A DNA stretch of 64,000 bases from Clostridia bacterium (GTDB lineage Bacteria > Bacillota > Clostridia > Oscillospirales > Acutalibacteraceae), in the NCBI GenBank assembly GCA_044432645.1, contig JAWXUM010000008.1, positions 1,056-65,055 on the forward strand, in the 5' to 3' direction. The notes under the pieces are model-generated. The model was not told the DNA's origin, did no database searches, and was given only the letters and a program-made list of their open reading frames with translations. This document shows, piece after piece, positions 1-33,524 of the stretch. Every line of letters begins with the position of its first letter. The first letter of the stretch is position 1. A program made the translations under genes and the position numbers.

Positions 1-130
1 GTTAAATAAAAAGGTGGAAGCTTTTTATTATCGAGGAGCGTTGTCAGTGAAGAACCGACAAGTTTCTGCCTAAATAGACTTTATTTTTTATACAATTCAA
101 ACAAATTGTATAAGCTTTATGAACTTTGAG

Positions 131-161
131 ATAAAAATAAAGCTTACATTAAGCAAGCTTT
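131..161 (-). terminator. Rho-independent terminator downstream of the recombinase gene
   Basis: On the minus strand, AAAGCUUGC / GUAAGCUUU stem (one G-U pair), 5-nt loop, then AUUUUUAU. Same structure at 23383-23413. Confidence 0.55.
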
Positions 162-244
162 ACTTTTAAAAAGTTTGGTTGCGGAGATAGGGATTGATGT
201 TGTATGCTCTTAGGGTTGGAACTTGAACCCCTACCACTTTTTAA

Positions 245-1909
245 TTAGACAGCTATTTTTAATTGTTTGTGTTTTTCTTTAGCAATTTGGATTATATTTT
301 TTTGTGGCTGACCGACAAGTCCTATATCTCTGTAGTAAATCCACACGTCTTGAACTGCGTTTCTTTTGGATTTTTCTGGTCTTTCTTCGACTATGATTTT
401 GTCTATGAAAGTTCTTAGAATTTCGCTTGTCAGTTCATTGATATTGGTGTATTTTTTAGCTTTTGAGATAAACTTTTCGGTGTCTTGCATTGTGTTTTCA
501 AGTTTTACGATTTGCTCTTTTAAGTCTGGAAGTGAAGTTTTTATCTCTTTTTGTTCTTGGTTATAGCAAGTCGATAACATTTGGAATTGCTCGTCTGAAA
601 TCTTGCCAAGCACATTATCTTCGTAGGTCTTTTTGAACAATACTAGCAGTTCGTTATCACGCTTTTCTAATTTAGAAACTTGTTTGTGTAGCTTGCTAAG
701 TTCCTTTTTAGTTTCAGCATTGCTTTTATCGATTATGAACTTAACAAACTTTTCTTCGTCTTGCCTTGCAAAATGTGTGACTCTTTTGATTTCATCAAGT
801 AACATTGTTTTCAAATGCTTTTCACTAATTCTGTGAGGTGTGCATTCTTTACTACCATATTTTCTGTTTGTAGCACATACGAAATAGCAGTTGCCAGTTT
901 TGTTTTCCCTTGTAAACGAGAGTGGTTTTTTGCAGTCGTTACAGAATACCATACCAGAAAACATATTAGGAATCAACTCGCCTTTTGCGGGTCTTTTTCT
1001 GTTTTTTCTAACATTTTGGCAGATTTCCCAAGTATCTTTGCTGACTAATGGTTCGTGTGTATTCTCGAATTTAACCCATTCATCTTCTGGTTTTACAATA
1101 TGCTTTTTGTTTTTGTAGGACAAAGTTGTGTATTTTAAGTTGATTGTATTACCAATGTACACTTCATTATCTAAAACTTGAGCAACTGTTTTTGATGACC
1201 AATGATAGGGATGTTCGATGTCGATATTGGTAAGTTTGACATTTGTTATACTATAATAGTAGTTGCTTGGGGTTAGAATTTGCATTTCTTCAAGCTTGTT
1301 TGCTATTATCTTCGGACCACAACCATCCATACATAATTTGAAAATTAGCTTAACATTGTCGGCAGTGTCTGGGTTTGGAACTATCTTTTTAATGTCGGGA
1401 TTATTCATGTAACCATAAGGAGCTCTGCCAGAAACTCTTTCGCCACGTTCGGCTTTTGATTTTATCACAGCTTTGATTTTCTTGCTACAATCTTTGGCAT
1501 ACCATTCGTTGATGATGTTTTTGAATGGTGTGAATTCGTTGTCGCCTTTGGCACTGTCAACTCCGTCATTGATTGCGATAAATCTTACTCCGTAAGTTGG
1601 AAAGTCGATTTCCATAAGCTTTCCAACTTGTAAATACTCACGACCTAGCCTTGACATATCTTTTACGATTAGCGTTGAAACTTGGTTGATTTCAATCAAA
1701 TTCATAATTTCAATCCATGCTGGTCTTATAAAAGTCGTGCCTGAATACCCATCATCACTTTTGATTACGATGTTTTCAAAACCATGCTCTTCTGCATATT
1801 TTTGAAGTAACATTTTCTGATTTTGTATGCTGTTTGACTCACCGAAACTTTCATCTTCTTGACTTAATCTTGCGTATAAAATTGTATATTTTTGTGTTGT
1901 ACCTTTCAT
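245..1909 (-). CDS. Large serine recombinase (TnpX/TndX-like)
   Basis: 554 aa. N-terminal resolvase motif YARLSQEDE with catalytic Ser, recombinase domain, Cys-rich zinc ribbon (CNDC...CATNRKYGSKEC), C-terminal coiled coil. SD AAGAGG upstream. Confidence 0.93.
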   Translation of the reverse strand: MKGTTQKYTILYARLSQEDESFGESNSIQNQKMLLQKYAEEHGFENIVIKSDDGYSGTTFIRPAWIEIMNLIEINQVSTLIVKDMSRLGREYLQVGKLMEIDFPTYGVRFIAINDGVDSAKGDNEFTPFKNIINEWYAKDCSKKIKAVIKSKAERGERVSGRAPYGYMNNPDIKKIVPNPDTADNVKLIFKLCMDGCGPKIIANKLEEMQILTPSNYYYSITNVKLTNIDIEHPYHWSSKTVAQVLDNEVYIGNTINLKYTTLSYKNKKHIVKPEDEWVKFENTHEPLVSKDTWEICQNVRKNRKRPAKGELIPNMFSGMVFCNDCKKPLSFTRENKTGNCYFVCATNRKYGSKECTPHRISEKHLKTMLLDEIKRVTHFARQDEEKFVKFIIDKSNAETKKELSKLHKQVSKLEKRDNELLVLFKKTYEDNVLGKISDEQFQMLSTCYNQEQKEIKTSLPDLKEQIVKLENTMQDTEKFISKAKKYTNINELTSEILRTFIDKIIVEERPEKSKRNAVQDVWIYYRDIGLVGQPQKNIIQIAKEKHKQLKIAV

Positions 1910-1996
1910 TTTTACCTCTTTCTGTATTGCGTGGGAGGTTTTAGGTACTGAATACTGTAATTCAATTATACTCTAAAACCTCCAACAAGTCTATTA

Positions 1997-2248
1997 TTAT
2001 TTGCTGTAATCGTTATCAATTATTTGTAGCATTTTATCATCAATAGCGACTAAATTGTCAGTAGGGAATACCGAGTGAATTCGATATCCTTTTCCATCAA
2101 TATCCATATATCTGTGTGAATAACATTTGCCTTGATATTTTTGAAGTTTGCTATCGGTGAATTTATCATCAACAATTTCCGTTGTTTCATAAGCTCCAAA
2201 AACTTTGTTTTCCATATAATATTTAGCTTCGTTTTGTATCTCTCTCAT
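1997..2248 (-). CDS. Hypothetical 83-aa protein, translationally coupled to the relaxase (TAATG overlap)
   Basis: ORF conserved in both element copies (25248-25499). GGGAGGA SD lies inside the relaxase 3' end. Confidence 0.6.
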   Translation of the reverse strand: MREIQNEAKYYMENKVFGAYETTEIVDDKFTDSKLQKYQGKCYSHRYMDIDGKGYRIHSVFPTDNLVAIDDKMLQIIDNDYSK

Positions 2249-3579
2249 TAATATCCTCCCATTTTTATATCATTTTTCGGTGTGTAATCTATTTCATTTT
2301 CTTGTTCTAATTTTAAATTATCAATGTAATTTTCTACATCTTCATCATTTATGTCGCTTTCGTTTTGTGATTTTAGCCACTCAATTAATAGGTAAACACC
2401 AGCTATTGTTAAGGCTGTTATTTCTACCATAGTTAATATTTCAGCCATTTTATCATCTTCATTTTCTGCTTGTTCTAATCTTTTAATTGACCACATCAGG
2501 TTGTTGGTTAAAGTCCTAGTTGATGCTTTATTAGTAGAAAAGTTATCAGACCTGTCAACATCATGAAGTTCAGCAGAATTATTCCTATTGCTGTTTTCAA
2601 GTTGGAACAGTTCTTCTCGTTCAGCTTCCCATCCAGTTCTTGTTTCTGTTGTAGGATTTGCAGCATCTGCTTGAGTTCCTTGAGCTCCTGATAGTATTGA
2701 TGTCGGTTCTCTAGTTGTTTCACATTGTAATTTATCGACTGTATTTTCTCTTGTGAATTGTTCAGTATATCCACTATCAACTGCTGATTGTCGAATATAT
2801 TGTCTATATTCTGCTCCGTCCAACTGCAACTGCTCGGCTTGTGCAATTCTTTCAATTTGTTCAATTCTTTGTCGTCTAAGTTCAAATTCTTTCTCCATTC
2901 TAATTTTCAAATATCGTTCTTGGTGTAGTTTATTATCTCGGCATTTCATTGAGTTTGGGCAAGTGTAAGTTATGCTTTTTCTGTTTTCTTCCCATTTTAC
3001 TTGATATCCCTCTGATTGCATTAGCTTTTTAAATTGCTCTTTAGATTTAGAAAATCTCATGCAATCATCTATGGTATTTATCAGCTTAAACTTCCAACTT
3101 TCGCCTTTTAAAGCTGAGTGATATTCTTTGCTACTCATTTGATTTTCTCTTTTGTTTTTTGAGTAAGTCGTAAGAGGTGTATCGCCAAATTTCAAACAAA
3201 TCTCATCATTTATCTTTCTGTTATTGACTAAATCATCATGGTTTTGATGTAACTTTTTACCTGTTTCAAAATTTACAGAGTTGATAATTATATGGTTGTG
3301 TAGATTTTCGGTGTTCTGATGGGTTGAAATAATTGCTTCAAAATTTGGAAATTCTTTTGCTACAAATTCTAAACCAATTTGATTTATTTCTTGTGGTGTT
3401 AGGTTTGTATTTGACGGAAATGACTGAACAAATTGATAAAACATTCGTCCGTTGTTTTTTCTAAATTGGTTTTTAGTGGTCATCATTTCGTCAAATGCTG
3501 ATGGCACTAAACAATTAAATCCAGTGTTTAAACCTTTGGTTTTCTCCATGTCAAGAGCATAGGTTATACTCTTAAGCAT
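2248..3579 (-). CDS. Relaxase/mobilization nuclease (MobA/VirD2-type)
   Basis: 443 aa. Histidine triad HQNTENLHNHIIINS. Directly follows mobC. Variable Gln/Glu-rich C-terminal half with a terminal hydrophobic helix. Confidence 0.88.
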   Translation of the reverse strand: MLKSITYALDMEKTKGLNTGFNCLVPSAFDEMMTTKNQFRKNNGRMFYQFVQSFPSNTNLTPQEINQIGLEFVAKEFPNFEAIISTHQNTENLHNHIIINSVNFETGKKLHQNHDDLVNNRKINDEICLKFGDTPLTTYSKNKRENQMSSKEYHSALKGESWKFKLINTIDDCMRFSKSKEQFKKLMQSEGYQVKWEENRKSITYTCPNSMKCRDNKLHQERYLKIRMEKEFELRRQRIEQIERIAQAEQLQLDGAEYRQYIRQSAVDSGYTEQFTRENTVDKLQCETTREPTSILSGAQGTQADAANPTTETRTGWEAEREELFQLENSNRNNSAELHDVDRSDNFSTNKASTRTLTNNLMWSIKRLEQAENEDDKMAEILTMVEITALTIAGVYLLIEWLKSQNESDINDEDVENYIDNLKLEQENEIDYTPKNDIKMGGY

Positions 3580-3623
3580 TGCCGTTTTAGTTTGCGTTTT
3601 GTTTTTGATAGCGTATAAAATTC

Positions 3624-3929
3624 CTATATAATCACCTCCGATATATTGTTGATTTTTGAATGAACTAAGCTTAATTCGAGGATCATGTTTTCTAAATTGA
3701 TTGAACTAATTTTACCCATATTGGCTAAAGTTGTAAGCTGATTTAGGTTTCGTCCAATAGCTTTTAGTTCGGTTGTTAGCTGTGACAATCCGTCTATCAC
3801 AACTATTGGTTTATCAAGTGCTTGTCTTGTGAGATATTCTGTTGTTGTCAAATGAGCTTTTTTAGCTTTCGACTTGATTTTATTAAGGTCGTTTTCGTTA
3901 ATTCTAAATGCAAAGTTTTTGTTTTTCAT
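3624..3929 (-). CDS. mobC: MobC-family relaxosome accessory protein
   Basis: 101 aa with the MobC signature GRNLNQLTTLAN. SD AAAGGA. Identical protein at 26875-27180. Confidence 0.85.
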   Translation of the reverse strand: MKNKNFAFRINENDLNKIKSKAKKAHLTTTEYLTRQALDKPIVVIDGLSQLTTELKAIGRNLNQLTTLANMGKISSINLENMILELSLVHSKINNISEVII

Positions 3930-3963
3930 AAGTTCCTTTCTGCGTAAATATATGGTTTGCGTT

Positions 3964-4044
3964 CTTAAGGGGTTCGGGTTCGCCCGACAAGCTGTGTTCG
4001 CCGTATAGGCGAATGCTATGCTTGCCTCTCTTGTAAGAGAGTTT
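3964..4044. promoter_or_regulatory. Putative oriT (two hairpins just upstream of mobC)
   Basis: TTCGCC-gtata-GGCGAA (3997-4013) and CTCTCTT-gt-AAGAGAG (4026-4041) flank ATGCTATGCTTGCC. Locally GC-rich. Conserved at 27215-27295. Confidence 0.5.
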
Positions 4045-4980
4045 TCGTAGATAAAAGTTAGTGGGTGCTGACACCAATGACGCCACTGACACGAGATTTA
4101 GGTAGGGAACAGTAGTAGAAGTTTAACGTCATTGCTGTGTTTTTCAATTGTGCATAGTCAAATCATCCTTTCTAAATTCAAAAAAGTGGGAGCAATATTC
4201 ATATTACGAAACAGGTGTTTTTTACCCTCTACTATATAAAGACACTTCTAAGCCAAAATGTTCCTAAGTAGATAAAAAATTTTAAAAATAAATTTATCCC
4301 TCTAATAGGTAGAACACGAGAAACTAATTTTGTAACCCCTTTTGCAAAAATATTTTAATTAATTTAAAATGTCCTATACTATATAGCTACAACCTACAAA
4401 GCAAAAAACCACCATTAATTTTTTATAAAAAATATCCCTACACCTATTTACACACTCAGAAGCAAAAACACAGGGTGTTTTTCAAAAAAAGTTTTTAAAA
4501 ATATTTTTGCAAAATAAAAAAGCCCTTTGAAATTAATCAAAGAGCCTTAGTGTAAATATAAAATTGTGTATATATACTTATTATGTATTCAGAAATGAAA
4601 AAGTAATTGTTTTGTAGGACAAATAAAAACCGATGGTTATGACAAATTAATTTTGAGTTTAATTAATCACAGATACGAAAAATATATAAATCTTACTCTG
4701 AAAATTTTTCTTTATATTATAATTATGTATCAAGATTTCAATAATGTATAAAAATCAATAACAAATAAAAACCAATTTGATAACAAATTAATTTGCAAAA
4801 AAAATAACTCTCTACTATATAGGACAGTTGTAGAGAGTTTGTAAACCAAAATTATTTAATTTTATTACAGACACGAAAAATATATAAATTTCACTCTATG
4901 AAATTAACGTCATTGGTGTCATGGTGTCATAGTTTGTTTTTATCAACAGAAAAAATATAATAATTTTAAGTGTGGTAAGT

Positions 4981-5375
4981 GTAACTTGGTAAGATATTTC
5001 TAGTGTTTATCACGTTCTTTGGATTTTTACAAGTGTAACCAAAGCGTAACTTAAGTGTAACTGGTAACACATGAGTAACATTTGGGTAACACTTGCGTGT
5101 GTGCGAAAAAGTCAGTGTTCATCAGATTTTTGGGACTTGGTAACACTTACCACACTTGTTTTAAAGTAAAGCTGTTATATATACAAAAAAATCTGTCACT
5201 ACTGACACTTTACAAAAAAGTCTAGGTTTTAAGCCATTCTTAGGAAATTTACTAGTGACACCTTTTCGTTACTTTACCGACACAAATGACAGAAATATAT
5301 CGGATAAATAACAGGTTTAAATTGCGATAAACTCAGTGTTTGCAAGGGTTTCTAGGAAAAGTGACAGAATGACAG
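4981..5375 (+). repeat. Strand-biased short-motif arrays (GTAAC x8, then TGACA[C/G] x5-6)
   Basis: GTAAC at 4981, 5035, 5046, 5057, 5064, 5075, 5086, 5140. TGACAC/TGACAG at 5203, 5256, 5287, 5362, 5370. No credible ORF. Same arrays at 28878-29270. Confidence 0.7.
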
Positions 5376-5731
5376 AAAATTTAAACAAGAGTAACGTCCT
5401 AATTAAAAATCCTTTCTCTAACGCCAAACAAATTCGCAAACTGTGGCTCATGAGCCTTGTCTGTGATTTTAAGTTAGTTGGGGTGGTATCCTTACCCTAA
5501 GAGCGAATAATAAATCGACAAACTCTGACTTAGGTCTTGTCAACTACTCTAAAAACACGTTGTTAGTCCTTGCGTAATAATAGGCAAAAAGCATTTTAAT
5601 TATGTGTTATATTAGCTTAAAATATCGTATATTATATAATTTTGTTTATTATAGCAATAGAACTAAAAAAATATATATGTTATAATTACACTGTGCAAAA
5701 AGAACATCAATTCAAGTTTAAGGAGATAGTT

Positions 5732-6808
5732 ATGAAGTATAGAATTGGAATAATTGGAAGTGGTTCAATAAGCAAATCTCACACATATGGTTTTGATAAA
5801 TTAAATGAATTATATCAAGATTTAGAGCTTGAAAAGGTCGTTATGTGTTCTAGAAACATTACTGTAGATAGAGCAACTGAACTTGGTTGGAAAGAAATTG
5901 AAACAGATTGGAAAAAAGTTGTTGTTAGAGATGATATTGATGTAATAGATATTGTTGCTTACGATAATTTGCATTTTGAGATTGCTAAATTTGCGTTAGA
6001 AAATGGTAAACGTGTGATTTGTGAAAAACCACTTTCCGATACATCAGAACAAGCTTTAGAATTATCTAAATTAGCAATAGAAAAAAACATACCTGCTACT
6101 GTATGTATTAATTATAGATACATACACTCAGTTCGTTGTATTAAACATCTTATTGATACTGGTGTTTTAGGTGAGATACGACATATATTTGGTTCATTTT
6201 TAATGAATTGGGCAGTAAATGTTAATGGTGGTATGTATTGGAGATTAAACGATTCATATAGTAAGGGTGGAGCTTTAGGTGATTTAGGAACTCATATTAT
6301 TGATATGTGTGAATATTTTGGACTTGATTTTTCATCTGTGTGTGGTATGAATGAAGTGTACGGAAAAGAAAGACTATTGGGTACTGAAATGGTAAGCACT
6401 ACTGCAAATGAATTATCAGTATTTAATGCACGTTTTTCAAATAATGCACTTGGTATTTTTGAGCTTTCAAGGGTGTCTGGTGGCGGAACTGGTATGATGA
6501 TAGAAATACACGGAACAAAAGGCAATGTAAAGTGGGAGAAAAACAACATAAATACATTAAAAATTCATATGGCTGACGACCCAGAAAATAAATGGAGCTA
6601 TAAAGAAATTTTAGCAAGTGATATACTCCCCATGGATTATGACTTTAAACATGAATTTATTCAAATGGATAGCTACACTCTATTATTTAAGGACTTTTTT
6701 ATCTGTAATTCAGATTACCCTACCTTTGAAGATGGATATAAAGTTTGCAAAATAGTTGACGCTGTTATTGAATCTGATAAAAAAAGGAAGTACATAAATC
6801 TAAATTAA
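5732..6808 (+). CDS. Gfo/Idh/MocA-family NAD(P)-dependent oxidoreductase
   Basis: Rossmann motif IGIIGSGSIS and EKP motif (VICEKPLS). Start moved to ATG 5732, which has an AAGGAG SD. Confidence 0.85.
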   Translation: MKYRIGIIGSGSISKSHTYGFDKLNELYQDLELEKVVMCSRNITVDRATELGWKEIETDWKKVVVRDDIDVIDIVAYDNLHFEIAKFALENGKRVICEKPLSDTSEQALELSKLAIEKNIPATVCINYRYIHSVRCIKHLIDTGVLGEIRHIFGSFLMNWAVNVNGGMYWRLNDSYSKGGALGDLGTHIIDMCEYFGLDFSSVCGMNEVYGKERLLGTEMVSTTANELSVFNARFSNNALGIFELSRVSGGGTGMMIEIHGTKGNVKWEKNNINTLKIHMADDPENKWSYKEILASDILPMDYDFKHEFIQMDSYTLLFKDFFICNSDYPTFEDGYKVCKIVDAVIESDKKRKYINLN

Positions 6809-6833
6809 GTTTAATAAGTGAAAGGATGGTTCA

Positions 6834-7640
6834 ATGCTTAGAAAATTATTAGCACTGTGTGTAGTAGCTAAACTACAAATCCAAATGGCGTTTGTATATA
6901 GACTTAACTATTTGTTTGGCATAATATCGCTGTTTTTGCCAGTTGCTGCTTCGTATTTTATATGGACTGGTGTTTATTCTAGTGGAACCGTTGATACTGG
7001 TTATGACTTACAATCCATTTTGCTTTATTCTGTAATTGGAGTAGGTTTACGATTATCAACCAGTACAAATGTAATAACTTTATTTGAAGGACTTGTCAAT
7101 TCTGGTAATATTGCTTTAGAGCTTCTTAAACCTATAAGTTTACAGGCTAAAATACTTTTTACAACAATTGGCGATGTCATACAGGGATTATTAACAAAGT
7201 TTTTTGTAGTGTTTTTATTGGCTGTTTTTATATTTAGGTTAGATATATTGTTTATTCAACCAATAAATATTTTATATTTTGTAGCACTTATGTTACTGGG
7301 ATTTTTTATAGTATTTCTTATAGATTATTTAATTGGATTAATCAGTTTTTGGCTTACACAGTTGTGGGGAATTAATTTTGCCAAAAGGCAGATGATGTCT
7401 GTTCTTTCTGGAAGTCTTATCCCTCTTACAATGTATCCTACTGCATTAGTTACAGTCTTAAATTATACTCCATTCCCTTACATATATGGATATCCACTTG
7501 ATGCATTAATAATGGGAATAACGTCAGAAAGATTTTTAGAAATTGTGATAATCGATTTGATTTGGATAATCGGATTATTTGTTTTAAGTAGAATAGTTTG
7601 GTTCTTTGGTTCTAAAAAAGTATTTGTGCAAGGAGGTTAA
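6834..7640 (+). CDS. ABC-2-type transporter permease (COG4587/COG3694-like)
   Basis: 268 aa, about 6 hydrophobic helices, first of two permease genes ahead of an ATPase gene. Confidence 0.72.
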   Translation: MLRKLLALCVVAKLQIQMAFVYRLNYLFGIISLFLPVAASYFIWTGVYSSGTVDTGYDLQSILLYSVIGVGLRLSTSTNVITLFEGLVNSGNIALELLKPISLQAKILFTTIGDVIQGLLTKFFVVFLLAVFIFRLDILFIQPINILYFVALMLLGFFIVFLIDYLIGLISFWLTQLWGINFAKRQMMSVLSGSLIPLTMYPTALVTVLNYTPFPYIYGYPLDALIMGITSERFLEIVIIDLIWIIGLFVLSRIVWFFGSKKVFVQGG

Positions 7641-7642
7641 GT

Positions 7643-8440
7643 ATGAAAAAATATTTAGTTATATATTTTAAAAGACAAGGTTATAACATAGCAACCGAAC
7701 TGCAATATCGTGCTAACTTCATATCAACACTAATTACTGTATTTGCACAGCCAATAACAATGATTTTATCGTTCTATATAATCACAAGTCAGTTTGAAAC
7801 CTTTGCTGGCTGGACTTTTTTTCAAATGTCTTTTATTTATGGAATTTGGAGATTAGGACATTCAATATCAATATCATTTTTCCAACAAGGCTGGGATATA
7901 GGAAATTTTGTAAGAAATGGTGAATTTGATAAATATTTAGTTAAACCTTTAGACCCACTATTTCAATTGTTTTGTATTAGGTATCAGAAAATAGGATTTC
8001 CACATTTTATTTCTGGAATTGTAATTGTTGCATTTTGTTCGGTAAAGCTTAACTTAACTTTTTCTGTTTTAGATGTTGTTTTTTTAATAATAACTGTTTT
8101 GTCCGCTGCTATTATCGAAATGTCTGCAACTTTATTGTTTTCGTCTTTTTCCTTTTGGATAACAGATGCCAGTAATATCTTAAGAGTAGCATTAAACACA
8201 AATTATGAATTAATGCAATATCCTATAAATATTTATAATGATGTTTTAAAAGGTGTTTTAACATTCATTCTTCCTTATGGATTTATGAGTTTTTACCCTA
8301 GTTATCATTTTATTACTAATGGAGATGAACTTTCTAATATTTTCATATATGGTTCTCCAGTAGTAGCATTGATAATAGCAATAGTTGCAAGAAGCGTGTT
8401 TATGTTGGGAATTAAACATTATAATAGTACAGGTACATAA
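7643..8440 (+). CDS. ABC-2-type transporter permease (second subunit)
   Basis: 265 aa polytopic membrane protein. SD AGGAGG. 2-nt gap from the previous gene. Confidence 0.72.
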   Translation: MKKYLVIYFKRQGYNIATELQYRANFISTLITVFAQPITMILSFYIITSQFETFAGWTFFQMSFIYGIWRLGHSISISFFQQGWDIGNFVRNGEFDKYLVKPLDPLFQLFCIRYQKIGFPHFISGIVIVAFCSVKLNLTFSVLDVVFLIITVLSAAIIEMSATLLFSSFSFWITDASNILRVALNTNYELMQYPINIYNDVLKGVLTFILPYGFMSFYPSYHFITNGDELSNIFIYGSPVVALIIAIVARSVFMLGIKHYNSTGT

Positions 8441-8454
8441 AAGGAGTGTGAGAT

Positions 8455-9435
8455 ATGTCAGTTATAAAAGTTGAAAATTTAAATAAAACTTATAAAACAC
8501 GAATGGTTTCAAAGGGTTTAAGTGGTGGTTTTAAAGGTTTGTTTGAAAATAAGTATGCGTATAAAAAAGCTGTGGACGATATTAGTTTTTCTATTGAAAA
8601 AGGTGAAAAAGTTGGGTATATCGGACCTAACGGTGCTGGTAAATCCACTACAATTAAAATGCTAACTGGTATTTTAACACCTACATCGGGTGATATTATG
8701 GTTTCTGGACTTGTTCCATATAAAAAAAGAAAAGAAAATGCAAAACATATAGGTGTAGTTTTTGGTCAAAGAAGCCAGCTTATGTGGGATTTGCCACTAG
8801 AAGAATCTTTCGATATGCAAAGATATATCTTTGATGTTAGCAAAAATGATTATATAGATAGACTATCTTTTTTCAGAAAAACATTTGAGCTTGATGAATT
8901 CTTACGCAAACCAGTTCGTCAATTGTCTTTAGGTCAGCGTATGAGGGCAGAAGTTTGTCTATCTCTTATACATAATCCTGATATAGTATTCTTAGATGAG
9001 CCTACTATCGGACTTGATGTTGTATCTAAAGAAACTATCCGTGATTTAGTTAATAATATGAATAAGAATAATGGAACTACATTTATACTCACCACCCACG
9101 ACATGCAAGATATAGAGAAAACTTGTGACAGGGTTATGATTATTGACAAAGGCAAGTTAATGTATGATGATAATATCGAAACATTAAAAGAAAAATTTGG
9201 TAACAATAAATCTATAACAATTGTTTTGGAAGATATGGCAGAAAAAGATAAATCTATATATGAGCAAGAAGGTTTAAAAATAGAATATATCGATAAAAAC
9301 AAGATTACATACAGGTTATTAGGCTCAATTCCAGTAGAGCAAATTATAGCTACGCTATTCTCAAAACTAAAAATTAAAGACATTTCTATATCAAACGATA
9401 GTGTAGAAGATATAGTGAAAACTTTGTATGTTTAG
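8455..9435 (+). CDS. ABC transporter ATP-binding protein (COG4586-like)
   Basis: Walker A GPNGAGKST, signature LSLGQRMR, Walker B IVFLDEPT. Confidence 0.9.
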   Translation: MSVIKVENLNKTYKTRMVSKGLSGGFKGLFENKYAYKKAVDDISFSIEKGEKVGYIGPNGAGKSTTIKMLTGILTPTSGDIMVSGLVPYKKRKENAKHIGVVFGQRSQLMWDLPLEESFDMQRYIFDVSKNDYIDRLSFFRKTFELDEFLRKPVRQLSLGQRMRAEVCLSLIHNPDIVFLDEPTIGLDVVSKETIRDLVNNMNKNNGTTFILTTHDMQDIEKTCDRVMIIDKGKLMYDDNIETLKEKFGNNKSITIVLEDMAEKDKSIYEQEGLKIEYIDKNKITYRLLGSIPVEQIIATLFSKLKIKDISISNDSVEDIVKTLYV

Positions 9436-9593: not shown

Positions 9594-9862
9594 TTTACAG
9601 TATCCAGACCCTCGGTTCACATTCCCACCTTAAGAGCATATACCTGAACCTATGACCTTCGGGTTATGAGCTTTGCTATAAGCGAAAAATTCAGTGTTTA
9701 TGGGAGTTTATAGCACTTTTTAGTCCATAAAATTGCCAAAAACCCGAGTGTCATTTCCACCCAGTCCACTGTTTCCGTCCCAGTTTTTCCTATTATGGGT
9801 CAAAACATGGGTCAAACCTTAAAAGTAATAAAGTCTAGTTTAATTTTTAATAAAAATAAGTT
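9594..9862 (+). repeat. About 270-bp dispersed repeat (U270), copy a
   Basis: Near identical to 34368-34637. Contains segments homologous to parts of the serine-recombinase elements and tandem ATGGGTCAA iterons (9794-9815). Confidence 0.8.
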
Positions 9863-9896
9863 CTCAAAATTTGCTATGCTGTAAACAAAGAAAGAG
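9863..9896 (+). repeat. Cassette-boundary site, copy 1
   Basis: CTCAAAATTTGCTATGCTGTAAACAAAGAAAGAG. Confidence 0.85.
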
Positions 9897-9923
9897 AATT
9901 TATCTTCTTGATAGCATTTTTAA

Positions 9924-10394: not shown

Positions 10395-10429
10395 CTCACT
10401 AAATTATATGTTAATTTTATTGCATGGCT

Positions 10430-10463
10430 CTCAAAATTTGCTATGCTGTAAACAAAGAAAGAC
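10430..10463 (+). repeat. Cassette-boundary site, copy 2
   Basis: CTCAAAATTTGCTATGCTGTAAACAAAGAAAGAC. Last base overlaps the stop codon of 10463-11035. Confidence 0.85.
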
Positions 10464-11035
10464 TATTTTCTAAGCTTATCATATTGCACAACAGTTTCAC
10501 CAGTTTTAAGATTAATTTTTTCTTTATATAATAAGGTATATCTTATCTGACCTTTGGTATAATCTCTGTTGGTTTTTGGAAAGAATGAGCGACAGAAATA
10601 TGTATTATCCTCATTTTTAGAAATAAATATGTAAATATCGTTAGATTCCAACGGAGTTGATAGTAAAAAATCGGCTTGAATAAACGAAAAGGCATTAATT
10701 TTTTCATTGTATCTAAAAACTAAATTGTTATTATCTAGGATTTTTTCAATGTTGGCAAGTGGGATAAATCTATCTTCAATTTGAGAAATAAACTCACTTG
10801 TAGATATTTTTGCATAAGTTAATTTGTTATTAATAATGTCTGTGAAAACCTTAAAACGATTTTGATTAGCAACTTCTAAATCTCTAAGTTTAACAAGACC
10901 CATTAAATGATGAAACTGTGAAGAAAGAAACCTAATTCTAAGTTCAATTTTTTCACCTTTTCGCCCTAAAACAATTTTGTATTCAGTATGGGTAAGATTT
11001 TCAAATGCTTTTGCACACGCCAATAGTTTGTCCAT
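10463..11035 (-). CDS. Putative PBECR4-like (barnase/EndoU/RelE-fold) nuclease, paralog A
   Basis: 190 aa with an FHHLMGL motif. Paralog at 34671-35243. The family assignment is from memory and is tentative. Confidence 0.55.
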   Translation of the reverse strand: MDKLLACAKAFENLTHTEYKIVLGRKGEKIELRIRFLSSQFHHLMGLVKLRDLEVANQNRFKVFTDIINNKLTYAKISTSEFISQIEDRFIPLANIEKILDNNNLVFRYNEKINAFSFIQADFLLSTPLESNDIYIFISKNEDNTYFCRSFFPKTNRDYTKGQIRYTLLYKEKINLKTGETVVQYDKLRK

Positions 11036-11228
11036 AAAATTCCTCTCTGTATAAAGAAAGTCGCCTTGCTTTCACAAGACGACTAACAATAGCGTTTTCT
11101 TTCGGTATTACTACCTACATCGGTTCGAGGTTGCCACTCAACCCATCCGTAGAGCTCCATACAACAAGGCGACCGATACCCCCTTGCATATCAACACTCA
11201 AACAGACACACAGTCGTTGCCTGTTGTT
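11036..11228 (-). ncRNA. Structured 5' leader RNA with intrinsic terminator (copy A)
   Basis: Promoter TTGACA-N17-TAATAT. Conserved 5' block, covarying helix (11172-11177 with 11119-11124). Terminator hairpin 11059-11084 plus U-run directly before the SD. Confidence 0.6.
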
Positions 11229-11272: not shown

Positions 11273-11302
11273 AAAAATTTGCTATGCTGTAAACAAAGAG
11301 AG
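11273..11302 (+). repeat. Cassette-boundary site, copy 3
   Basis: AAAAATTTGCTATGCTGTAAACAAAGAGAG, 5 nt from the stop codon of 11308-11607. Confidence 0.8.
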
Positions 11303-11307
11303 CTATT

Positions 11308-11607
11308 TTATGATATTGCGATGCGTTCGTATTTAAAACTGTTTTTATATAAAGTTTCAGTTGCGATATCAATATCTCCGTCAAGCCAAGTAAGGATTCC
11401 ATCGATAATTTTGCAAGTTTTGAAAACTTCATCTTTTTTCAAAACTTCAAAAACTGGAATATCAGTTAATGTTGTGGCATCAAAAAGACGATCTTCGCTT
11501 GTGTTAAACGTAACAATCATCATCATATCATCTAAAGCTTTAACGTTTACTACTTCTAAATAATCAACGTTTTCACTTGCGTAAGCAATTCCATTTATAA
11601 TTCGCAT
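11308..11607 (-). CDS. DUF2442-family protein
   Basis: 99 aa. Pattern ...IVTFNTSEDRLFD...GILTWLDGDIDIATETLY is typical of DUF2442. Confidence 0.75.
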   Translation of the reverse strand: MRIINGIAYASENVDYLEVVNVKALDDMMMIVTFNTSEDRLFDATTLTDIPVFEVLKKDEVFKTCKIIDGILTWLDGDIDIATETLYKNSFKYERIAIS

Positions 11608-20017: not shown

Positions 20018-20240
20018 AAAACATCAAGTGCATCACCATTGTTTTAAAAATGCTTAAAAATCCGTTTACTGTCCAGACATTGGGACAGTAAGGTCTGTAT
20101 AATATATTATATAATCCACTAAATTGTCAAAGTGAAATGCCTATCTTAAGAAAATTTTTATTTTTCTTAGGAACATTTTGCGTTGCAAGTGTCTTTATAT
20201 AGTGGAGAGTATTTTAATTAAAAAAAGAAAGGATGATTAA

Positions 20241-20480
20241 ATGAAAGAATCAATGTACAAAAGTTATGATGAACTGCCGTTGTTTTTAAATGCAAAAACT
20301 ATTTCACAGGTGTTAGGGATTGCACCATCTAGTGCTTATGAGTTAATGCATGAAGAAAGTTTTCCTGTTTTAAAAATTGGAAACCGAATGGTTGCTCCAA
20401 AAGAGAAGTTCATTATGTGGGTAGAAAAAAATAGCAAGCAGATAATTGAATTTTTAGTTTTTACAAGGTATGAGGTTTAA
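20241..20480 (+). CDS. Excisionase/MerR-type helix-turn-helix DNA-binding protein
   Basis: LNAKTISQVLGIAPSSAYELM...PVLKIGNRMVAPKEKFIMWVEKN. SD GAAAGGA. Confidence 0.7.
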   Translation: MKESMYKSYDELPLFLNAKTISQVLGIAPSSAYELMHEESFPVLKIGNRMVAPKEKFIMWVEKNSKQIIEFLVFTRYEV

Positions 20481-20512
20481 AGGCTGGTGAAATCGCTATC
20501 TATGCTTATTTA

Positions 20513-20827
20513 ATGTCGATTGAAAATCGAAAAACTTTTCAGTGCTACCCAAGTTATAAAACTATTGGTAGTGCAGTCGGAATGAGTGTAAATACTGTTC
20601 AAAAATATGTAAAAAGTTTAGAAGATAAAAATTTTATCTCAACAGAGTCAACTTCTATTTTTAGAAAAACTGGTGAAAAGGTAAACGGAAATTTGCTCTA
20701 TACAATTAAGCCAATAGCCGAAACTATCCAAACTTTCCACGAAAAGCAAATGGCAGAGTTTGACAGGCAAAACGCTATTTACCGATTTGAGAAGAAAAAC
20801 GACAGAGAATATATTATAGCAGGATAA
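20513..20827 (+). CDS. Winged-helix/HTH protein, probably N-terminally truncated
   Basis: CYPSYKTIGSAVGMSVNTVQKYVKSLEDKNFI. The family-typical ...IAIYAYL... segment lies in frame upstream of the first ATG, just after a stop codon. Confidence 0.5.
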   Translation: MSIENRKTFQCYPSYKTIGSAVGMSVNTVQKYVKSLEDKNFISTESTSIFRKTGEKVNGNLLYTIKPIAETIQTFHEKQMAEFDRQNAIYRFEKKNDREYIIAG

Positions 20828-20912
20828 AGTGACGTGGTCGTCGCAGTCACTTCGGACGGCAGTGCCGACCGTTTTTACTAGTAAACAAGCCATTCTTTAC
20901 GATTTAACTCAA

Positions 20913-21010
20913 GGTGGTCGGATTTTACAAACTGTGTCGGCTAGGTGGACGGATTTACAAGAAATCAAGGAAATAAGCCATTTTAAAGGTGGTCGACTAG
21001 GTGGACAAAC
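20913..21010 (+). repeat. Four direct GGTGG(T/A)C repeats upstream of the integrase gene (arm-type or iteron-like sites)
   Basis: GGTGGTCGGATTTTACAA 20913, GGTGGACGGATTTACAA 20944, GGTGGTCGAC 20988, GGTGGACAAAC 21000. Confidence 0.55.
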
Positions 21011-21105
21011 TAAATTTATCAAAATGTACACAGTTTATCATAAGTTTATATAAGATTAAACATTGAAATTATAGTATTGTTAAACTTAAAAAAAGGAGGG
21101 ATTTT

Positions 21106-22275
21106 ATGGCTAAACGTAGGGCTAATGGTGAGGGGAATATTCGCAAGAGGAGTGACGGACGTTGGGAAGGTCGGTATACTGCTGGGACTAATGCTGAAAC
21201 AGGCAAACAGATTTTTAAGAATGTTCTTGCCAAGACACAGGCTGAATGTAAGGAAAAATTAAAGCTTGCTATCGAGAATGTCAAGGGGATTGATGTTACT
21301 AAAACTGACAAATATAATGTTGGTGAATGGCTTGAAATATGGTTCGAGAATTATGCAAAAATCAAGGTTAGGGCAAGTTCTCACCAAACTTATATCGGTT
21401 ATATTAACAACCATATCAAGCCTAGAATTGGGGAAATTAAACTTAATAAGTTGACTAATTTGGACTTGCAAAAGATGTACAAGGACTTGCTTGAAAATGG
21501 CAGAGTGGTTAGGACAGAGAGCAAAAACCAATCAAGTGGACTTAGTGCCAAGACAGTTAGGAACATTCATCAAGTGGTTTCGTCAGCTTTAGAAACAGCT
21601 GTTTCACAAAAGTTAATCAGCTCAAACCCAGCTGAACATTGCCAACTTCCTAAAGCTGAAAAGAAAGAAATGCAGACACTCACAGCAAGTCAGCTAGAGA
21701 AATTTTTTATAGAGGCGAAAAACAGTGGAGTTTTTGAGCTGTATTATGTAGAAATTGCCACAGGTTTAAGACGTGGAGAAATTTTGGGTTTGAAGTGGAA
21801 AGATATAGATTTTGACAGCCAAACAATCACAGTTCACAGACAAATTATGAGAGTAAATGGCGAAATTATCGAAAGTCCACTTAAAACAAAAAATTCCTAT
21901 CGGAAAGTTCCAATAGGAGTTGATGTGGTTGAAATACTTAAATATTTAAAAGCAAATTCAACAAGTGAATATGTGTTCTGTAATAAAGAGGGCAATGCAA
22001 TCTCACCAGATAGTGTTCTAAATATGCTACACCGAGTTCTAAAAAGAGCGAACTTGCCAAAAGTAAGATTTCACGATTTAAGGCACACATTCGCAACACT
22101 TGCCTTGCAAAATGGAGTAGACATTAAAACAGTTTCATCAATCTTAGGTCACTTCTCAGCAGGCTTCACACTTGATACTTACACCCACGTAACCACAACA
22201 GCACAACTAAACGCAGCCAACACAATGAGTGGAATTTTACAAAATGCTACCATGTCAAAAATTGATACGCTGTAA
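21106..22275 (+). CDS. Tyrosine site-specific integrase
   Basis: 389 aa. N-terminal SAM-like domain. Catalytic residues in RRGEILGLKW, HDLRHTFAT, LGH and LDTYTHV. SD AAGGAGGG. Confidence 0.92.
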   Translation: MAKRRANGEGNIRKRSDGRWEGRYTAGTNAETGKQIFKNVLAKTQAECKEKLKLAIENVKGIDVTKTDKYNVGEWLEIWFENYAKIKVRASSHQTYIGYINNHIKPRIGEIKLNKLTNLDLQKMYKDLLENGRVVRTESKNQSSGLSAKTVRNIHQVVSSALETAVSQKLISSNPAEHCQLPKAEKKEMQTLTASQLEKFFIEAKNSGVFELYYVEIATGLRRGEILGLKWKDIDFDSQTITVHRQIMRVNGEIIESPLKTKNSYRKVPIGVDVVEILKYLKANSTSEYVFCNKEGNAISPDSVLNMLHRVLKRANLPKVRFHDLRHTFATLALQNGVDIKTVSSILGHFSAGFTLDTYTHVTTTAQLNAANTMSGILQNATMSKIDTL

Positions 22276-22287
22276 TCAAAGAAAGGG
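22255..22287 (+). repeat. Cassette-boundary site, copy 6 (overlaps the last 6 codons and stop codon of the integrase gene)
   Basis: TCAAAAATTGATACGCTGTAATCAAAGAAAGGG. The TAA at 22273-22275 is the integrase stop codon. Confidence 0.8.
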
Positions 22288-22337
22288 ATTTGGCAATATA
22301 GCCCACGACATCTATAAAATGTTAGGGGTTTTGTCAA

Positions 22338-22365
22338 TTGAATTATTGGTTTGATGTGGTATAAT
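22338..22365 (+). promoter_or_regulatory. Outward promoter downstream of the integrase gene, driving the S51 peptidase gene
   Basis: TTGAAT-N16-TGgTATAAT. Confidence 0.6.
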
Positions 22366-22408
22366 GTTATATAAAGATTATTTAAATTAGTTTTAGGAGG
22401 ATGGTACA

Positions 22409-23050: not shown

Positions 23051-23093
23051 AGACCTATTATGCACATTCTACGAATAATTTTAATAAACAAAT

Positions 23094-27563: not shown

Positions 27564-28535
27564 GTGGCACAGTTTTTTAAAGATTTATTTCATTCAAATA
27601 ACGGATTTTTTGAGTTTGATGTTCTTTTTGGAAATTCTGATATTAAAATAAAAGAAAACAGTTATAGTTACGGACAACTTGTGGTAGAACTTTTGAATTT
27701 TGATTTTACAGAATTCAAACAAATTATGAGTGAAAATTCTACTTTTGAGCAAAAAAAGAAGGTAGCTTTAACGCTACCTGTGTACAGAGATTTTTATTAT
27801 GAAGATGTTTCTTCTTTTGTTGAAAAGTTTAAGGATGAAGAATTTATAGAAATGTTTTCAGGCAATAAAATTATCGAAGATGATTTTGATAAAATATTAG
27901 AAAGTATTACTTTTATTGAAAAATATCGCTGGTTTTTAGATGAGGTGAATTACAGAAAAGAAAAGAATTTTATTCATCAAATTAATATGAATGGTTTTGC
28001 TGCTTTTGTATCGGATAAAACTTTACGATCTACAAACGAGTGGGAAGCCACTATGTCAAAAATTCAATATACATTAGTGGAAGATGAAAATGGAAACTCA
28101 CAAATTTTTGAACAGATTACGTTTAATAATTTGATTGACTTTTTCTACACGGATTTTTACAAAGGGATTATGAGAGAGTCTGTTCCTAAAAAATGCAGAC
28201 TATGTGGCAAGTATTTCTTGCAAGAAAAAGGCTTTACATATGAATACTGTAATAATATTTATGAGGATAACAAGACTTGCCGAGATGTTGGTTCGACTAA
28301 AAGTTTTAAAGAAAAAACAGCTAATAACGAAATTTGGAAAATTCATCAAAGGGCATACAAAAAATATTATGCAAGAATAGCTAAAAAGAATATGACACAA
28401 AAAGATTTTCTTGATTGGGCATCTAAAGCAGAGGAAATTCGAGATAATAATTTACCAATTTACGAAAAAGCAATGGTTCATGGTGAAGATTTTGATTTAG
28501 CAGAATATACTAAACAAATTAATTATATTAAATAA
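27564..28535 (+). CDS. Hypothetical 323-aa protein with a Cys-cluster (zinc-ribbon-like) region
   Basis: GTG start 8 nt after GGGAGG. CRLCGKYF...YCNN...CRD cluster and a basic helical C-terminus. Present only in copy 2. Confidence 0.6.
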   Translation: MAQFFKDLFHSNNGFFEFDVLFGNSDIKIKENSYSYGQLVVELLNFDFTEFKQIMSENSTFEQKKKVALTLPVYRDFYYEDVSSFVEKFKDEEFIEMFSGNKIIEDDFDKILESITFIEKYRWFLDEVNYRKEKNFIHQINMNGFAAFVSDKTLRSTNEWEATMSKIQYTLVEDENGNSQIFEQITFNNLIDFFYTDFYKGIMRESVPKKCRLCGKYFLQEKGFTYEYCNNIYEDNKTCRDVGSTKSFKEKTANNEIWKIHQRAYKKYYARIAKKNMTQKDFLDWASKAEEIRDNNLPIYEKAMVHGEDFDLAEYTKQINYIK

Positions 28536-33518: not shown

Positions 33519-33524
33519 TAGCTG

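What the first reader, a model, noticed from the sequence alone, without database searches (positions are those of the whole stretch)
4981..5375. Dense strand-specific arrays of GTAAC and TGACA(C/G) in a 1.5 kb non-coding arm conserved in both element copies
Eight GTAAC pentamers lie within 165 bp, all on one strand. By my rough base-composition estimate about one per kb would be expected. They are followed by five to six TGACAC/TGACAG motifs ending in a tandem GTGACAGAATGACAG. Three more TGAC(A/G)C lie at 4069-4092, and an inverted GGTGTCATGGTGTCAT lies at about 4915-4930. The arrays are conserved at 28878-29270 although the copies have diverged. No ORF explains them. Candidate roles are iterons of a replication or partition function for the excised circle, recombination-directionality or regulator binding arrays, or a long ncRNA. 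U270 has the same layout with different iterons (ATGGGTCAA), which suggests element-specific recognition.
Basis: seen in the sequence. Interest (0 to 1): 0.65.

Follow-up and report, generated by a model that had tools for sequence, protein, structure and literature searches.

The report
Orphan replication-origin repeats in a mobilizable element
The GTAAC and TGACA repeats are real, selectively conserved protein-binding-type repeats (iterons) in the non-coding arm of a small integrative mobilizable element that has no replication helicase gene of its own, so they most likely recruit a replication protein made by another resident element.

Summary
Eight GTAAC lie in 164 bp, 12-13 TGAC-core sites lie across the arm, and all are kept in the second copy. 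None of the 79 copy A/copy B differences falls in a motif.

The host is a 5.5-6.1 kb integrative mobilizable element: MobC, a MOBP7-type relaxase, a small ORF and a large serine recombinase. Its oriT lies next to mobC and is conserved across the family. The arrays lie outside it.

The TGACA sites are a split, expanded version of a dyad of three direct plus three inverted TGAC repeats. In 13 related loci this dyad sits at the 3' end of a RepA/DnaB-like (AAA_25) helicase gene. It tracks that gene, not MobC. The window has no such gene.

The GTAAC sites are not a plain one-strand array. They form a mirror-symmetric, 11-bp-phased dyad, GTGTAAC x4 facing GTAACAC x4. The same phased heptamer array recurs in 23 viral contigs, mostly just 3' of primase-helicase genes.

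Best reading, confidence about 0.45: these are orphan iteron or origin-like sites served in trans. Rivals are a decaying relic, operator or partition sites, a single-strand hairpin origin, and a pac site. I rate it a new variant of a known kind and moderately interesting.

The parts
245..1909 (-). Large serine recombinase (554 aa; Resolvase, Recombinase, Zn_ribbon_recom and DUF4368 domains), copy A. The copy B gene is at 23497-25161.
1997..2248 (-). Conserved small ORF (83 aa, no Pfam or NCBIfam family). It lies between the relaxase and recombinase genes in most relatives that carry both.
2248..3579 (-). Relaxase (443 aa, PF03432, MOBP7-type). The copy B gene is at 25499-26830.
3624..3929 (-). 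MobC/NikA-like ribbon-helix-helix relaxosome accessory protein (101 aa). The copy B gene is at 26875-27180.
3965..4045 (.). oriT-like core. On the mob strand it reads hairpin, then the nearly invariant GGCAAGCATAGC, then a second hairpin, then a G+C-rich block. It is conserved in about 20 relatives, with compensatory changes in both hairpins. The arrays lie outside it. Copy B: about 27215-27297.
4069..4092 (+). Proximal TGAC triple (TGACACcaaTGACGCcacTGACAC, 9-bp period), 25 bp from the oriT hairpin. It reads GTCA on the mob strand. Copy B: 28548-28571, directly after the DUF6076 stop codon.
4239..4806 (.). Copy A-only 570 bp, A+T-rich, bounded by CTCTACTATATA promoter-like repeats. It contains a terminator-like hairpin at 4519-4548. 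It widens the gap between the two halves of the TGAC dyad from 241 nt (copy B) to 815 nt (copy A).
4907..4930 (-). Distal TGAC triple. On the - strand it reads ATGACACCATGACACCAATGACGT (8-9 bp period), the inverted partner of 4069-4092. Copy B: 28802-28825, where a 14-nt arm is 100% complementary to 28548-28561.
4968..5157 (.). GTAAC dyad. The outer arms 4968-4985 and 5140-5157 are 18 nt and 94% complementary. The inner array has G(T/C)GTAAC x3 at 11-bp phase, a 2-bp centre, then GTAACA(C/T) x3 at 11-bp phase (5033-5092). Copy B: 28865-29053.
5193..5375 (+). Extra TGACA(C/G) sites: an inverted pair at 5193/5203, then 5256, 5287, and the tandem pair 5362/5370, plus CGACAC at 5278. Copy B: 29087-29270.
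5470..5476 (.). Sharp end of A/B similarity (...TTTTAAGTTA), the probable right end of the element. Copy B: 29382.
27564..28535 (+). DUF6076 gene (323 aa), present only in copy B, inserted between oriT and the proximal TGAC triple. The structure model is confident but has no fold match in the PDB. Close homologues elsewhere are followed by an ordinary terminator hairpin and no arrays.

Best explanation
The arrays are iterons, short repeated protein-binding sites of a replication-origin-like region. They lie between oriT and the right end of a small integrative mobilizable element (IME) that encodes MobC, a MOBP7-type relaxase, an 83-aa protein and a large serine recombinase.

There are two sets.
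1. The TGAC(A/G)(C/G) sites descend from a dyad of three direct plus three inverted TGAC repeats with an 8-9 bp period. In related elements this dyad sits at the 3' end of a RepA/DnaB-like AAA_25 helicase gene, about 260 nt before oriT. In this lineage the helicase gene is gone, the dyad has been split by inserted DNA, and further TGACA sites have been added.
2. The GTAAC sites form a separate mirror-symmetric array phased at 11 bp, one helical turn: GTGTAAC x4 facing GTAACAC x4. In phage-like contigs this kind of array lies just 3' of primase-helicase genes that carry C-terminal HTH domains.

The element encodes no helicase or initiator, so the sites are orphans. The inferred mechanism is that a replicase made by another resident element binds them. 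This would let the excised circle replicate, or would titrate that replicase.

Shown: the anatomy, the enrichment, the preferential conservation of the motifs, the family-wide link between the TGAC dyad and the AAA_25 gene, and the recurrence of phased GTGTAAC arrays next to replicative helicase genes. Inferred: that proteins bind these sites, which proteins bind them, that replication results, and that the protein is supplied in trans.
For: Enrichment and phasing exceed chance.

No A/B difference falls in the 93 motif columns, while the spacers between GTAAC cores do change. The hypergeometric P is 4.6e-6, and 0 of 684 circular shifts give zero overlap.

TGAC-N4-5-TGAC-N4-5-TGAC occurs 13 times in 1.53 Mb of fetched loci plus the window. 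Every occurrence is in these elements. Where an oriT core is nearby it lies 258-261 nt downstream, and an inverted triple follows about 49 nt later.

The window's two triples have the same polarity relative to mobC and share the CCCAAAA spacer block.

The dyad goes with the helicase gene and not with MobC.
- L020 has the MobC type of L005 and L007, which have neither dyad nor helicase. Yet L020 carries the dyad together with the A13-type AAA_25 gene.
- L039 and L087 have helicase plus dyad but no mobC or relaxase.
- Other AAA_25 types carry other motifs, GGCGATAA/ATCGCC and GTGMCGAT.

In L012 and L013 the helicase ORF stops before the dyad, yet the dyad is kept. Changes in the direct half are not compensated in the inverted half and only the TGAC core is invariant. 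This points to protein-binding sites rather than a hairpin or a peptide.

GTGTAAC-N4-GYGTAAC-N4-GTGTAAC occurs in 23 viral contigs. In 9 distinct loci it lies 30-300 bp 3' of VapE/DUF5906, DUF3987 or DUF927/Toprim helicase genes with C-terminal HTH domains, and in one it lies just 5' of a dnaB gene. Two metagenome arrays lie 3' of Toprim or PrimPol helicase genes.

The oriT core is separate and conserved.

Precedents exist for an IME whose replication is triggered by its helper plasmid and that hijacks the helper's parABS system: SGI1 (PMC7433901, PMC10954446; abstracts seen).
Against: No cognate helicase or initiator gene is in the window (tblastn), and the rest of the genome could not be read.

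The two halves of the TGAC dyad are 241 nt (copy B) or 815 nt (copy A) apart, against about 25 nt in relatives. The roughly 45-nt block that follows the dyad in relatives (GCCACCGTTGCCCCCTGTTCGCCCC...) is absent. A profile of the relatives' region does not find the window. Homology therefore rests on architecture, not on a sequence score.

The GTAAC array has no counterpart in any related element. The viral arrays sit next to helicases whose C-terminal domains are unrelated to one another, so they are analogues, not homologues.

The window's right-arm sites read GTAACAC, not the true inverse GTTACAC seen in viral arrays.

Two viral arrays lie next to terminase small-subunit genes.

The conservation test has only two copies, in one genome.
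Confidence: 0.45

Rival explanations
1. Decaying relic. The TGAC sites are left over from a lost helicase or origin module, the GTAAC dyad is passenger DNA, and neither does anything now.
For: The helicase gene is missing. The dyad is split by insertions that differ between the copies. The conserved block that follows the dyad in relatives is missing. The arm is a mosaic that includes a promoter/RBS module also found in the neighbouring element.
Against: No A/B difference lies in 93 motif columns, although the surrounding sequence has diverged 11.5%. The number of TGAC-core sites has grown to 12-13 from 6 in relatives. GTAAC cores are kept while the spacers between them change.
Confidence: 0.15
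2. Operator or partition-type sites. The repeats bind a regulator or centromere-binding protein (the element's own MobC, the 83-aa protein, the recombinase, or a host or helper protein). This would control the mob operon or segregate the excised circle.
For: The sites lie in both orientations over 1.3 kb, in tandem at 8-9 bp or 11 bp. This is typical of ribbon-helix-helix and ParR/omega-type binders (general knowledge). Promoter-like sites lie among them, for example GTTACA-17-TATTAT on the - strand at 4985-4957 and TTGAAA-16-TAAACT at 4147-4120. The proximal triple lies 25 bp from oriT. SGI1 is a precedent for an IME that hijacks its helper's parABS system (PMC10954446).
Against: The dyad does not follow the MobC type, and it is absent from relatives that have MobC, the small ORF and the recombinase but no helicase. 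No partition gene is in the element.
Confidence: 0.15
3. Single-strand hairpin. The 190-nt palindrome folds in the transferred single strand and serves as a single-strand origin or priming site, or as a single-strand promoter, in the region that would enter the recipient first.
For: The palindrome folds better than shuffled sequence: + strand -29 kcal/mol (z = -2.7), - strand -23.4 kcal/mol (z = -1.8). The 18-nt outer stem is identical in both copies. The arm lies on the side of oriT away from the mob genes, which by analogy with other relaxase systems is the leading side (inference).
Against: Copy B changes at 5051-5052 break two potential pairs without compensation, and other spacer changes give no net gain. 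So the cores are conserved, not the pairing. The TGACA half does not fold (z = +0.25). There is no similarity to any plasmid sequence in PLSDB.
Confidence: 0.1
4. Packaging signal. The phased GTAAC array is a pac or cos-type site that lets a resident phage's small terminase package the element.
For: Two distinct viral GTGTAAC arrays lie next to terminase genes: L279 is 78 bp upstream of a Terminase_2 gene, and L267 lies upstream of a packaging module.
Against: Most such arrays lie next to helicase genes. The element is only 5.5-6 kb. No terminase gene is in the window.
Confidence: 0.05
5. Non-coding RNA. The arm is transcribed into a structured RNA in which the motifs are RNA features.
For: The region is non-coding and conserved in two copies. 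Promoter-like and terminator-like sites are present.
Against: Rfam gave no match even at E = 1. There is no covariation. The 11-bp and 8-9 bp phasing and the mirrored layout are features of double-stranded DNA.
Confidence: 0.03

Closest known systems
Origins of staphylococcal pathogenicity islands (SaPI/PICI): iterons just 3' of the rep primase-helicase gene (from my own knowledge: Ubeda et al. 2007, 2012)
   Same: Short repeats in two facing sets lie next to the 3' end of a helicase gene whose C-terminal domain reads them. The relatives' TGAC dyad and the viral GTGTAAC arrays have this layout. The window's arrays have the repeat architecture.
   Different: The window's element has no rep gene. 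Its helicase-associated relatives use an SF4/RecA-like AAA_25 protein, not an SF3 primase-helicase. No binding or replication has been shown.
SGI1, an IME whose replication is triggered by its helper plasmid and which hijacks the helper's parABS system (PMC7433901, PMC10954446)
   Same: It is an integrative mobilizable element that depends on, and exploits, functions of a helper element after excision. This is the proposed logic for orphan iterons.
   Different: It belongs to a different phylum and different protein families. Trans service of the window's sites is inferred only.
MOBP7 IMEs of Faecalibacterium and other Clostridia (PMC12084326)
   Same: They have a PF03432 relaxase with an upstream mobC gene and a putative oriT upstream of mobC. 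L004 and L006 are Faecalibacterium contigs.
   Different: The sections of that paper I read do not describe the helicase-linked dyad or orphan arrays. The window's relaxase is at most 50% identical to every relative I could fetch, and 68% identical to its closest database hit, P0003.
IncQ (RSF1010) oriV with RepA helicase, and iteron titration loci such as P1 incA (from my own knowledge)
   Same: A RepA/DnaB-like helicase family acts together with iterons. Extra iteron clusters without a gene can bind and titrate the initiator.
   Different: No RepC-like or primase gene has been identified. There is no sequence similarity. The dyad layout is different.
Arm-type sites of tyrosine recombinases
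   Same: These are also arrays of short direct repeats near an element's end. The neighbouring element shows this pattern (ATGGGTCAA x3 at 23133-23215, integrase at 21106-22275). Two metagenome GTAAC arrays lie next to integrases with an arm-binding domain.
   Different: This element's recombinase is a serine recombinase with no arm-binding domain.

Membership tests
Integrative mobilizable element of the MOBP7 type | PF03432 relaxase with a MobC-family accessory gene immediately upstream | tested here: met
Integrative mobilizable element of the MOBP7 type | Conserved oriT upstream of mobC | tested here: met
   The nearly invariant GGCAAGCATAGC lies between two hairpins. Seven of 15 predicted pairs show compensatory changes across 21 sequences. 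The nick site itself was not determined.
Integrative mobilizable element of the MOBP7 type | Own integrase and defined ends | tested here: inconclusive
   A large serine recombinase is present. The right end is inferred from the sharp A/B break at 5476/29382. The left end of copy A lies outside the window, and no empty site was available.
Helicase-linked TGAC dyad of this element family | Three direct plus three inverted TGAC-core repeats with an 8-9 bp period | tested here: met
   4069-4092 and 4907-4930; copy B 28548-28571 and 28802-28825
Helicase-linked TGAC dyad of this element family | Located at the 3' end of an AAA_25/DnaB_C helicase gene | tested here: not met
   There is no such gene in the window. 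All 13 A13-type loci have it.
Helicase-linked TGAC dyad of this element family | Halves about 25 nt apart, followed by the conserved ~45-nt block | tested here: not met
   The spacer is 241 nt (copy B) or 815 nt (copy A). The block is absent and the profile search found nothing.
Helicase-linked TGAC dyad of this element family | Same polarity relative to oriT and mobC, and a shared spacer motif | tested here: met
   The TGAC triple is distal and the GTCA triple is proximal. CCCAAAA precedes the proximal triple.
Iteron-type replication origin | Several short repeats at helical phase, in facing sets | tested here: met
   Spacings of 54, 11, 11, 7, 11, 11, 54. Analogous arrays lie next to helicase genes.
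Iteron-type replication origin | Cognate initiator encoded alongside | tested here: not met
Iteron-type replication origin | Initiator binding and origin activity | not testable with these tools
   Needs EMSA or DAP-seq and copy-number or plasmid-rescue assays.
Single-strand origin (sso) of rolling-circle and conjugative elements | Conserved, strand-specific folded structure, or similarity to a known sso type | tested here: inconclusive
   The palindrome folds (z = -2.7), but spacer pairing is not conserved and PLSDB gives no match.
Arm-type sites of a tyrosine recombinase | Tyrosine integrase with an arm-binding domain in the same element | tested here: not met
   The recombinase is a serine recombinase.
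Known RNA family (Rfam) | Match to a covariance model | tested here: not met

The most novel reading that the evidence does not exclude
The element is a replication parasite. It has shed its own helicase gene but keeps, and has multiplied, origin repeats for two unrelated kinds of replicase: an AAA_25 RepA-like helicase of sister elements, and a primase-helicase of a phage-like element. It can then be copied by whichever helper is active in the cell. By soaking up that helper's initiator, it may also interfere with the helper, an iteron-based incompatibility weapon.
Probability: 0.2. Interest if true: 0.7.

Novelty: new variant of a known kind. Interest (0 to 1): 0.5.

Why it matters
Small mobilizable elements in gut and anaerobic Firmicutes are abundant. 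How they persist after excision is little studied.

If the arrays are origin sites served in trans, this element would depend on helpers for replication as well as for the mating pore. It could also compete with its own relatives for their replicase.

The comparison gives two testable by-products.
- A conserved TGAC dyad at the 3' end of the AAA_25 helicase gene is a candidate origin for a large family of serine-recombinase elements. The literature searches I ran turned up no description of it.
- A phased GTGTAAC array recurs next to three unrelated families of phage-type replicative helicase.

Tried and rejected
Closer relatives of the arm.
- blastn of 4807-5476 against plasmids gave nothing.
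- Exact-pattern scans of species genomes gave 3 chance hits.
- Scans of metagenomes and viral contigs gave only convergent arrays.
- The contigs of the closest proteins, P0003 (68% relaxase identity) and P0122 (64% recombinase identity), could not be retrieved. Exact look-ups failed and scans with those proteins returned only relatives of about 50% identity.

Sequence-level homology of the arm. A profile (nhmmer) of the relatives' helicase-to-oriT region found nothing in the window.

MobC as the binder. Rejected because the dyad does not follow the MobC type.

DUF6076 as the binder.
- Relatives with DUF6076 but no helicase have no dyad.
- Close DUF6076 homologues are followed by a plain terminator hairpin.
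- The confident structure model (pLDDT 83) has no significant fold match in the PDB.

A degraded helicase gene in the arm. tblastn found none.

A shared DNA-binding domain among helicases next to GTAAC arrays. None was found between families.

GTWAC enrichment in relatives. None was found.

A known RNA. None was found.

The nick-site sequence of pC221-type plasmids. The paper is not held, so the nick position and the transferred strand remain inference.

The TGACAC-N3 triple in viral contigs. It gave more than 120 hits, many of them repeated runs that look like coding tandem repeats. I did not inspect them, so the scan was uninformative.

Full report
WHAT IS THERE. The window holds two diverged copies of one small element. 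Copy A spans 1-5476 and runs off the left edge of the window. Copy B spans 23253-29382. Coding parts are 93% identical and the arm is 88.5% identical.

On the - strand each copy encodes four proteins:
- a MobC/NikA-like ribbon-helix-helix protein (3624-3929);
- a PF03432 relaxase (2248-3579);
- an 83-aa protein with no known family (1997-2248);
- a 554-aa large serine recombinase with a DUF4368 tail (245-1909).

This is the layout of MOBP7-type integrative mobilizable elements described in Faecalibacterium (PMC12084326). Similarity between the copies stops sharply at 5476/29382, after ...TTTTAAGTTA. I take this as the probable right end.

The arm is not collinear in the two copies. Copy B carries a DUF6076 gene (27564-28535) between oriT and the first TGAC triple. 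Copy A carries an extra A+T-rich 570 bp (4239-4806).

Eight same-strand GTAAC in 164 bp is beyond anything seen in 100 Markov simulations of the window, where the maximum was 6. Triples at 11+11 bp spacing are also far above chance. No ORF is shared by the two copies.

The strongest single result is the conservation test. The 685 aligned columns contain 79 differences. None falls in the 93 columns occupied by GTAAC or TGACA(C/G). About 10.7 would be expected, the hypergeometric P is 4.6e-6, and none of 684 circular shifts of the difference pattern gives zero overlap. The spacers between GTAAC cores do change (5040, 5051-52, 5081, 5084). So the cores are what is being kept.

THE oriT IS ELSEWHERE. 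About 20 relatives, with relaxases around 50% identical, share a core just upstream of mobC. It has a hairpin, the nearly invariant GGCAAGCATAGC, a second hairpin and a G+C-rich block. Seven of 15 predicted pairs show compensatory changes. In the window this core is 3965-4045. The arrays lie beyond it, so they are not the conserved oriT.

THE TGACA SITES BELONG TO A FAMILY-WIDE DYAD LINKED TO A HELICASE GENE. Most relatives share this backbone:
- DUF6076 on the opposite strand;
- an AAA_25/DnaB_C P-loop protein of 330-375 aa;
- oriT, mobC, the relaxase, a small ORF and the recombinase.

In all 13 loci with the 'A13' type of this protein, its 3' end carries TGACggcaaTGACggcaTGACggc, then about 25 nt including CCCCCAAAA, then GCCGTCtttGCCGTCAgcacTGTCA. 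That is three direct plus three inverted TGAC repeats with an 8-9 bp period, about 260 nt before the oriT core.

The triple pattern occurs 13 times in 1.53 Mb of fetched DNA plus the window, and only in these elements. The window has the same thing with the same polarity. The TGAC triple is distal (4907-4930, read on the mob strand). The GTCA triple is proximal (4069-4092) and is preceded by CTCCCAAAAT. The difference is that the halves are 241 nt (copy B) or 815 nt (copy A) apart.

The dyad follows the helicase gene, not MobC.
- L020 has the MobC type of L005 and L007, which lack both dyad and helicase. Yet L020 has the dyad together with an A13-type helicase.
- L039 and L087 have helicase and dyad but no mob genes.
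- Other helicase types carry other motifs at the same place, GGCGATAA/ATCGCC and GTGMCGAT. I saw these by eye; the automated criteria were less regular for these classes.

In several relatives the dyad is read in frame as ...NDGNDGMT...LPSLPS. In L012 and L013 the ORF stops before it and the DNA is still kept. Changes in the direct half are not compensated in the inverted half, and only the TGAC core is invariant. This fits repeated protein-binding sites better than a hairpin or a peptide.

The window has no AAA_25 gene and no trace of one in the arm. It also has seven more TGACA-type sites at 5193-5375.

THE GTAAC ARRAY IS A MIRROR-SYMMETRIC, HELICALLY PHASED DYAD. GTAAC and its complement GTTAC differ only at the centre, so 'all on one strand' hides the real layout. 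Start positions are symmetric about 5062.5, with spacings of 54, 11, 11, 7, 11, 11 and 54. The four left sites read G(T/C)GTAAC and the four right sites read GTAACA(C/T). The outer 18-nt arms are 94% complementary and identical in both copies.

Related elements have nothing like it. However, the pattern GTGTAAC-N4-GYGTAAC-N4-GTGTAAC occurs in 23 viral contigs, about 17 of them distinct. By my own rough estimate, less than one would be expected by chance.
- In nine distinct loci the array lies 30-300 bp 3' of a VapE/DUF5906, DUF3987 or DUF927/Toprim helicase gene with a C-terminal HTH domain.
- In one locus it lies just 5' of a dnaB gene.
- In two loci it lies next to terminase genes.
- Two metagenome arrays likewise lie 3' of Toprim or PrimPol helicase genes.

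From my own knowledge, this is the known position of iteron origins in SaPI-type replicons. The helicases' C-terminal domains fall into at least three unrelated groups, so these arrays are analogues, not homologues. None of these helicase types is encoded in the window.

INTERPRETATION. The arm is best read as an origin-like region made of two sets of iterons, in an element that has lost or never had the matching replicase. The sites would be bound by a replicase from another resident element. That could be a sister element with an AAA_25 helicase, or a phage-like element with a primase-helicase. The excised circle could then be copied, or the helper's initiator titrated. SGI1 is a precedent for an IME whose replication is triggered by its helper and which hijacks the helper's partition system (PMC7433901, PMC10954446). 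My confidence is about 0.45. The anatomy, enrichment, conservation and family association are shown. Binding, replication and trans supply are inferred.

WHAT WEAKENS IT.
- The dyad is split and lacks the downstream block that relatives conserve.
- The GTAAC array has no homologue among relatives.
- Its right-arm sites are not true inverses of the left-arm sites.
- Two copies in one genome are a thin basis for a selection test.

Rivals are a decaying relic (0.15), operator or partition sites (0.15), a single-strand hairpin origin (0.10), a packaging site (0.05) and an RNA (0.03). The hairpin reading has some support: the palindrome folds (z = -2.7) and lies on the presumed leading side of oriT. 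Against it, spacer pairing is not maintained between the copies, the TGACA half does not fold, and there is no match to plasmid sequences.

DEAD ENDS.
- DUF6076 gives a confident model with no PDB fold match. Its close homologues have no arrays downstream.
- The closest relatives of the relaxase and recombinase could not be fetched.
- The nick site and the transferred strand could not be checked against the literature.

VERDICT. The feature is real and under constraint. It is not oriT, not coding, and not a known RNA. It is most likely a set of orphan iterons. I rate it a new variant of a known kind, with interest 0.5.

Noticed in passing
window 11087-11199 and 35293-35403 (- strand); 10463-11035 and 34671-35285: Two drum RNA motifs (Rfam RF02958, 82-87 bits) lie on the same strand as a PBECR4 nuclease gene, 8-52 bp upstream of it. 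This constant pairing suggests a leader or an RNA partner of the nuclease.
   Followed up: partly
window 9862-9901, 10429-10468, 11274-11311, 34641-34677: A 38-bp repeat (CTCAAAATTTGCTATGCTGTAAACAAAGAAAGA) bounds small cassettes: an HD-domain gene, and PBECR4 plus drum RNA. In copy B's neighbourhood the similarity breaks exactly at ...AAAATTT, as a recombination site would.
   Followed up: partly
window 20151-23215: A neighbouring element carries an Xis-like ORF (about 20242-20450), an HTH_36 protein (20513-20827) and a tyrosine integrase (21106-22275). It has AGGTGGWC repeats at 20905-21010 and ATGGGTCAA x3 at 23133-23215. These look like arm-type or regulator sites.
   Followed up: partly
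window 4223-4283 versus 20151-20211 (reverse): A promoter/RBS-like module in the copy A arm is 84% identical, in reverse orientation, to the region upstream of the neighbour's Xis-like ORF. In the arm it is followed by a 3-codon remnant ORF. The arm is therefore partly assembled from pieces of other resident elements.
   Followed up: partly
L011-L014, L020, L021, L031-L033, L036, L038, L039, L087 (3' end of the AAA_25 gene): A conserved dyad of three direct plus three inverted TGAC repeats, followed by a roughly 45-nt block, lies at or after the 3' end of the AAA_25/DnaB-like gene. It is a candidate origin for a large family of serine-recombinase elements. In some members it is read in frame as NDGNDGMT...LPSLPS.
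   Followed up: yes
L263-L285 (IMG/VR contigs): GTGTAAC arrays phased at 11 bp recur next to three unrelated families of replicative helicase (VapE/DUF5906, DUF3987, DUF927/Toprim), in contigs with G+C from 27% to 67%. Why the same heptamer recurs is unexplained.
   Followed up: partly
window 27564-28535: DUF6076 is usually paired head-to-head with the AAA_25 gene in this element family, and in one probable conjugative element (L140). Its AlphaFold model has mean pLDDT 83 and no significant fold match in the PDB. It has an invariant four-cysteine cluster.
   Followed up: yes
window 29526-34139: Next to copy B lie three SHOCT-domain proteins (30162-31911) and a small serine resolvase (33525-34139). 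Next to copy A lie a Gfo/Idh/MocA oxidoreductase and ABC-2 transporter genes (5642-9435). The two copies therefore sit in different surroundings, although similar PBECR4/drum cassettes lie 4-5 kb away from each.
   Followed up: no
window 1997-2248 and relatives: A small acidic ORF (83-103 aa, no family) lies between the relaxase and the recombinase in most relatives that carry both, and sits just upstream of the recombinase in some members that lack mob genes. It is a candidate partner of the recombinase.
   Followed up: no
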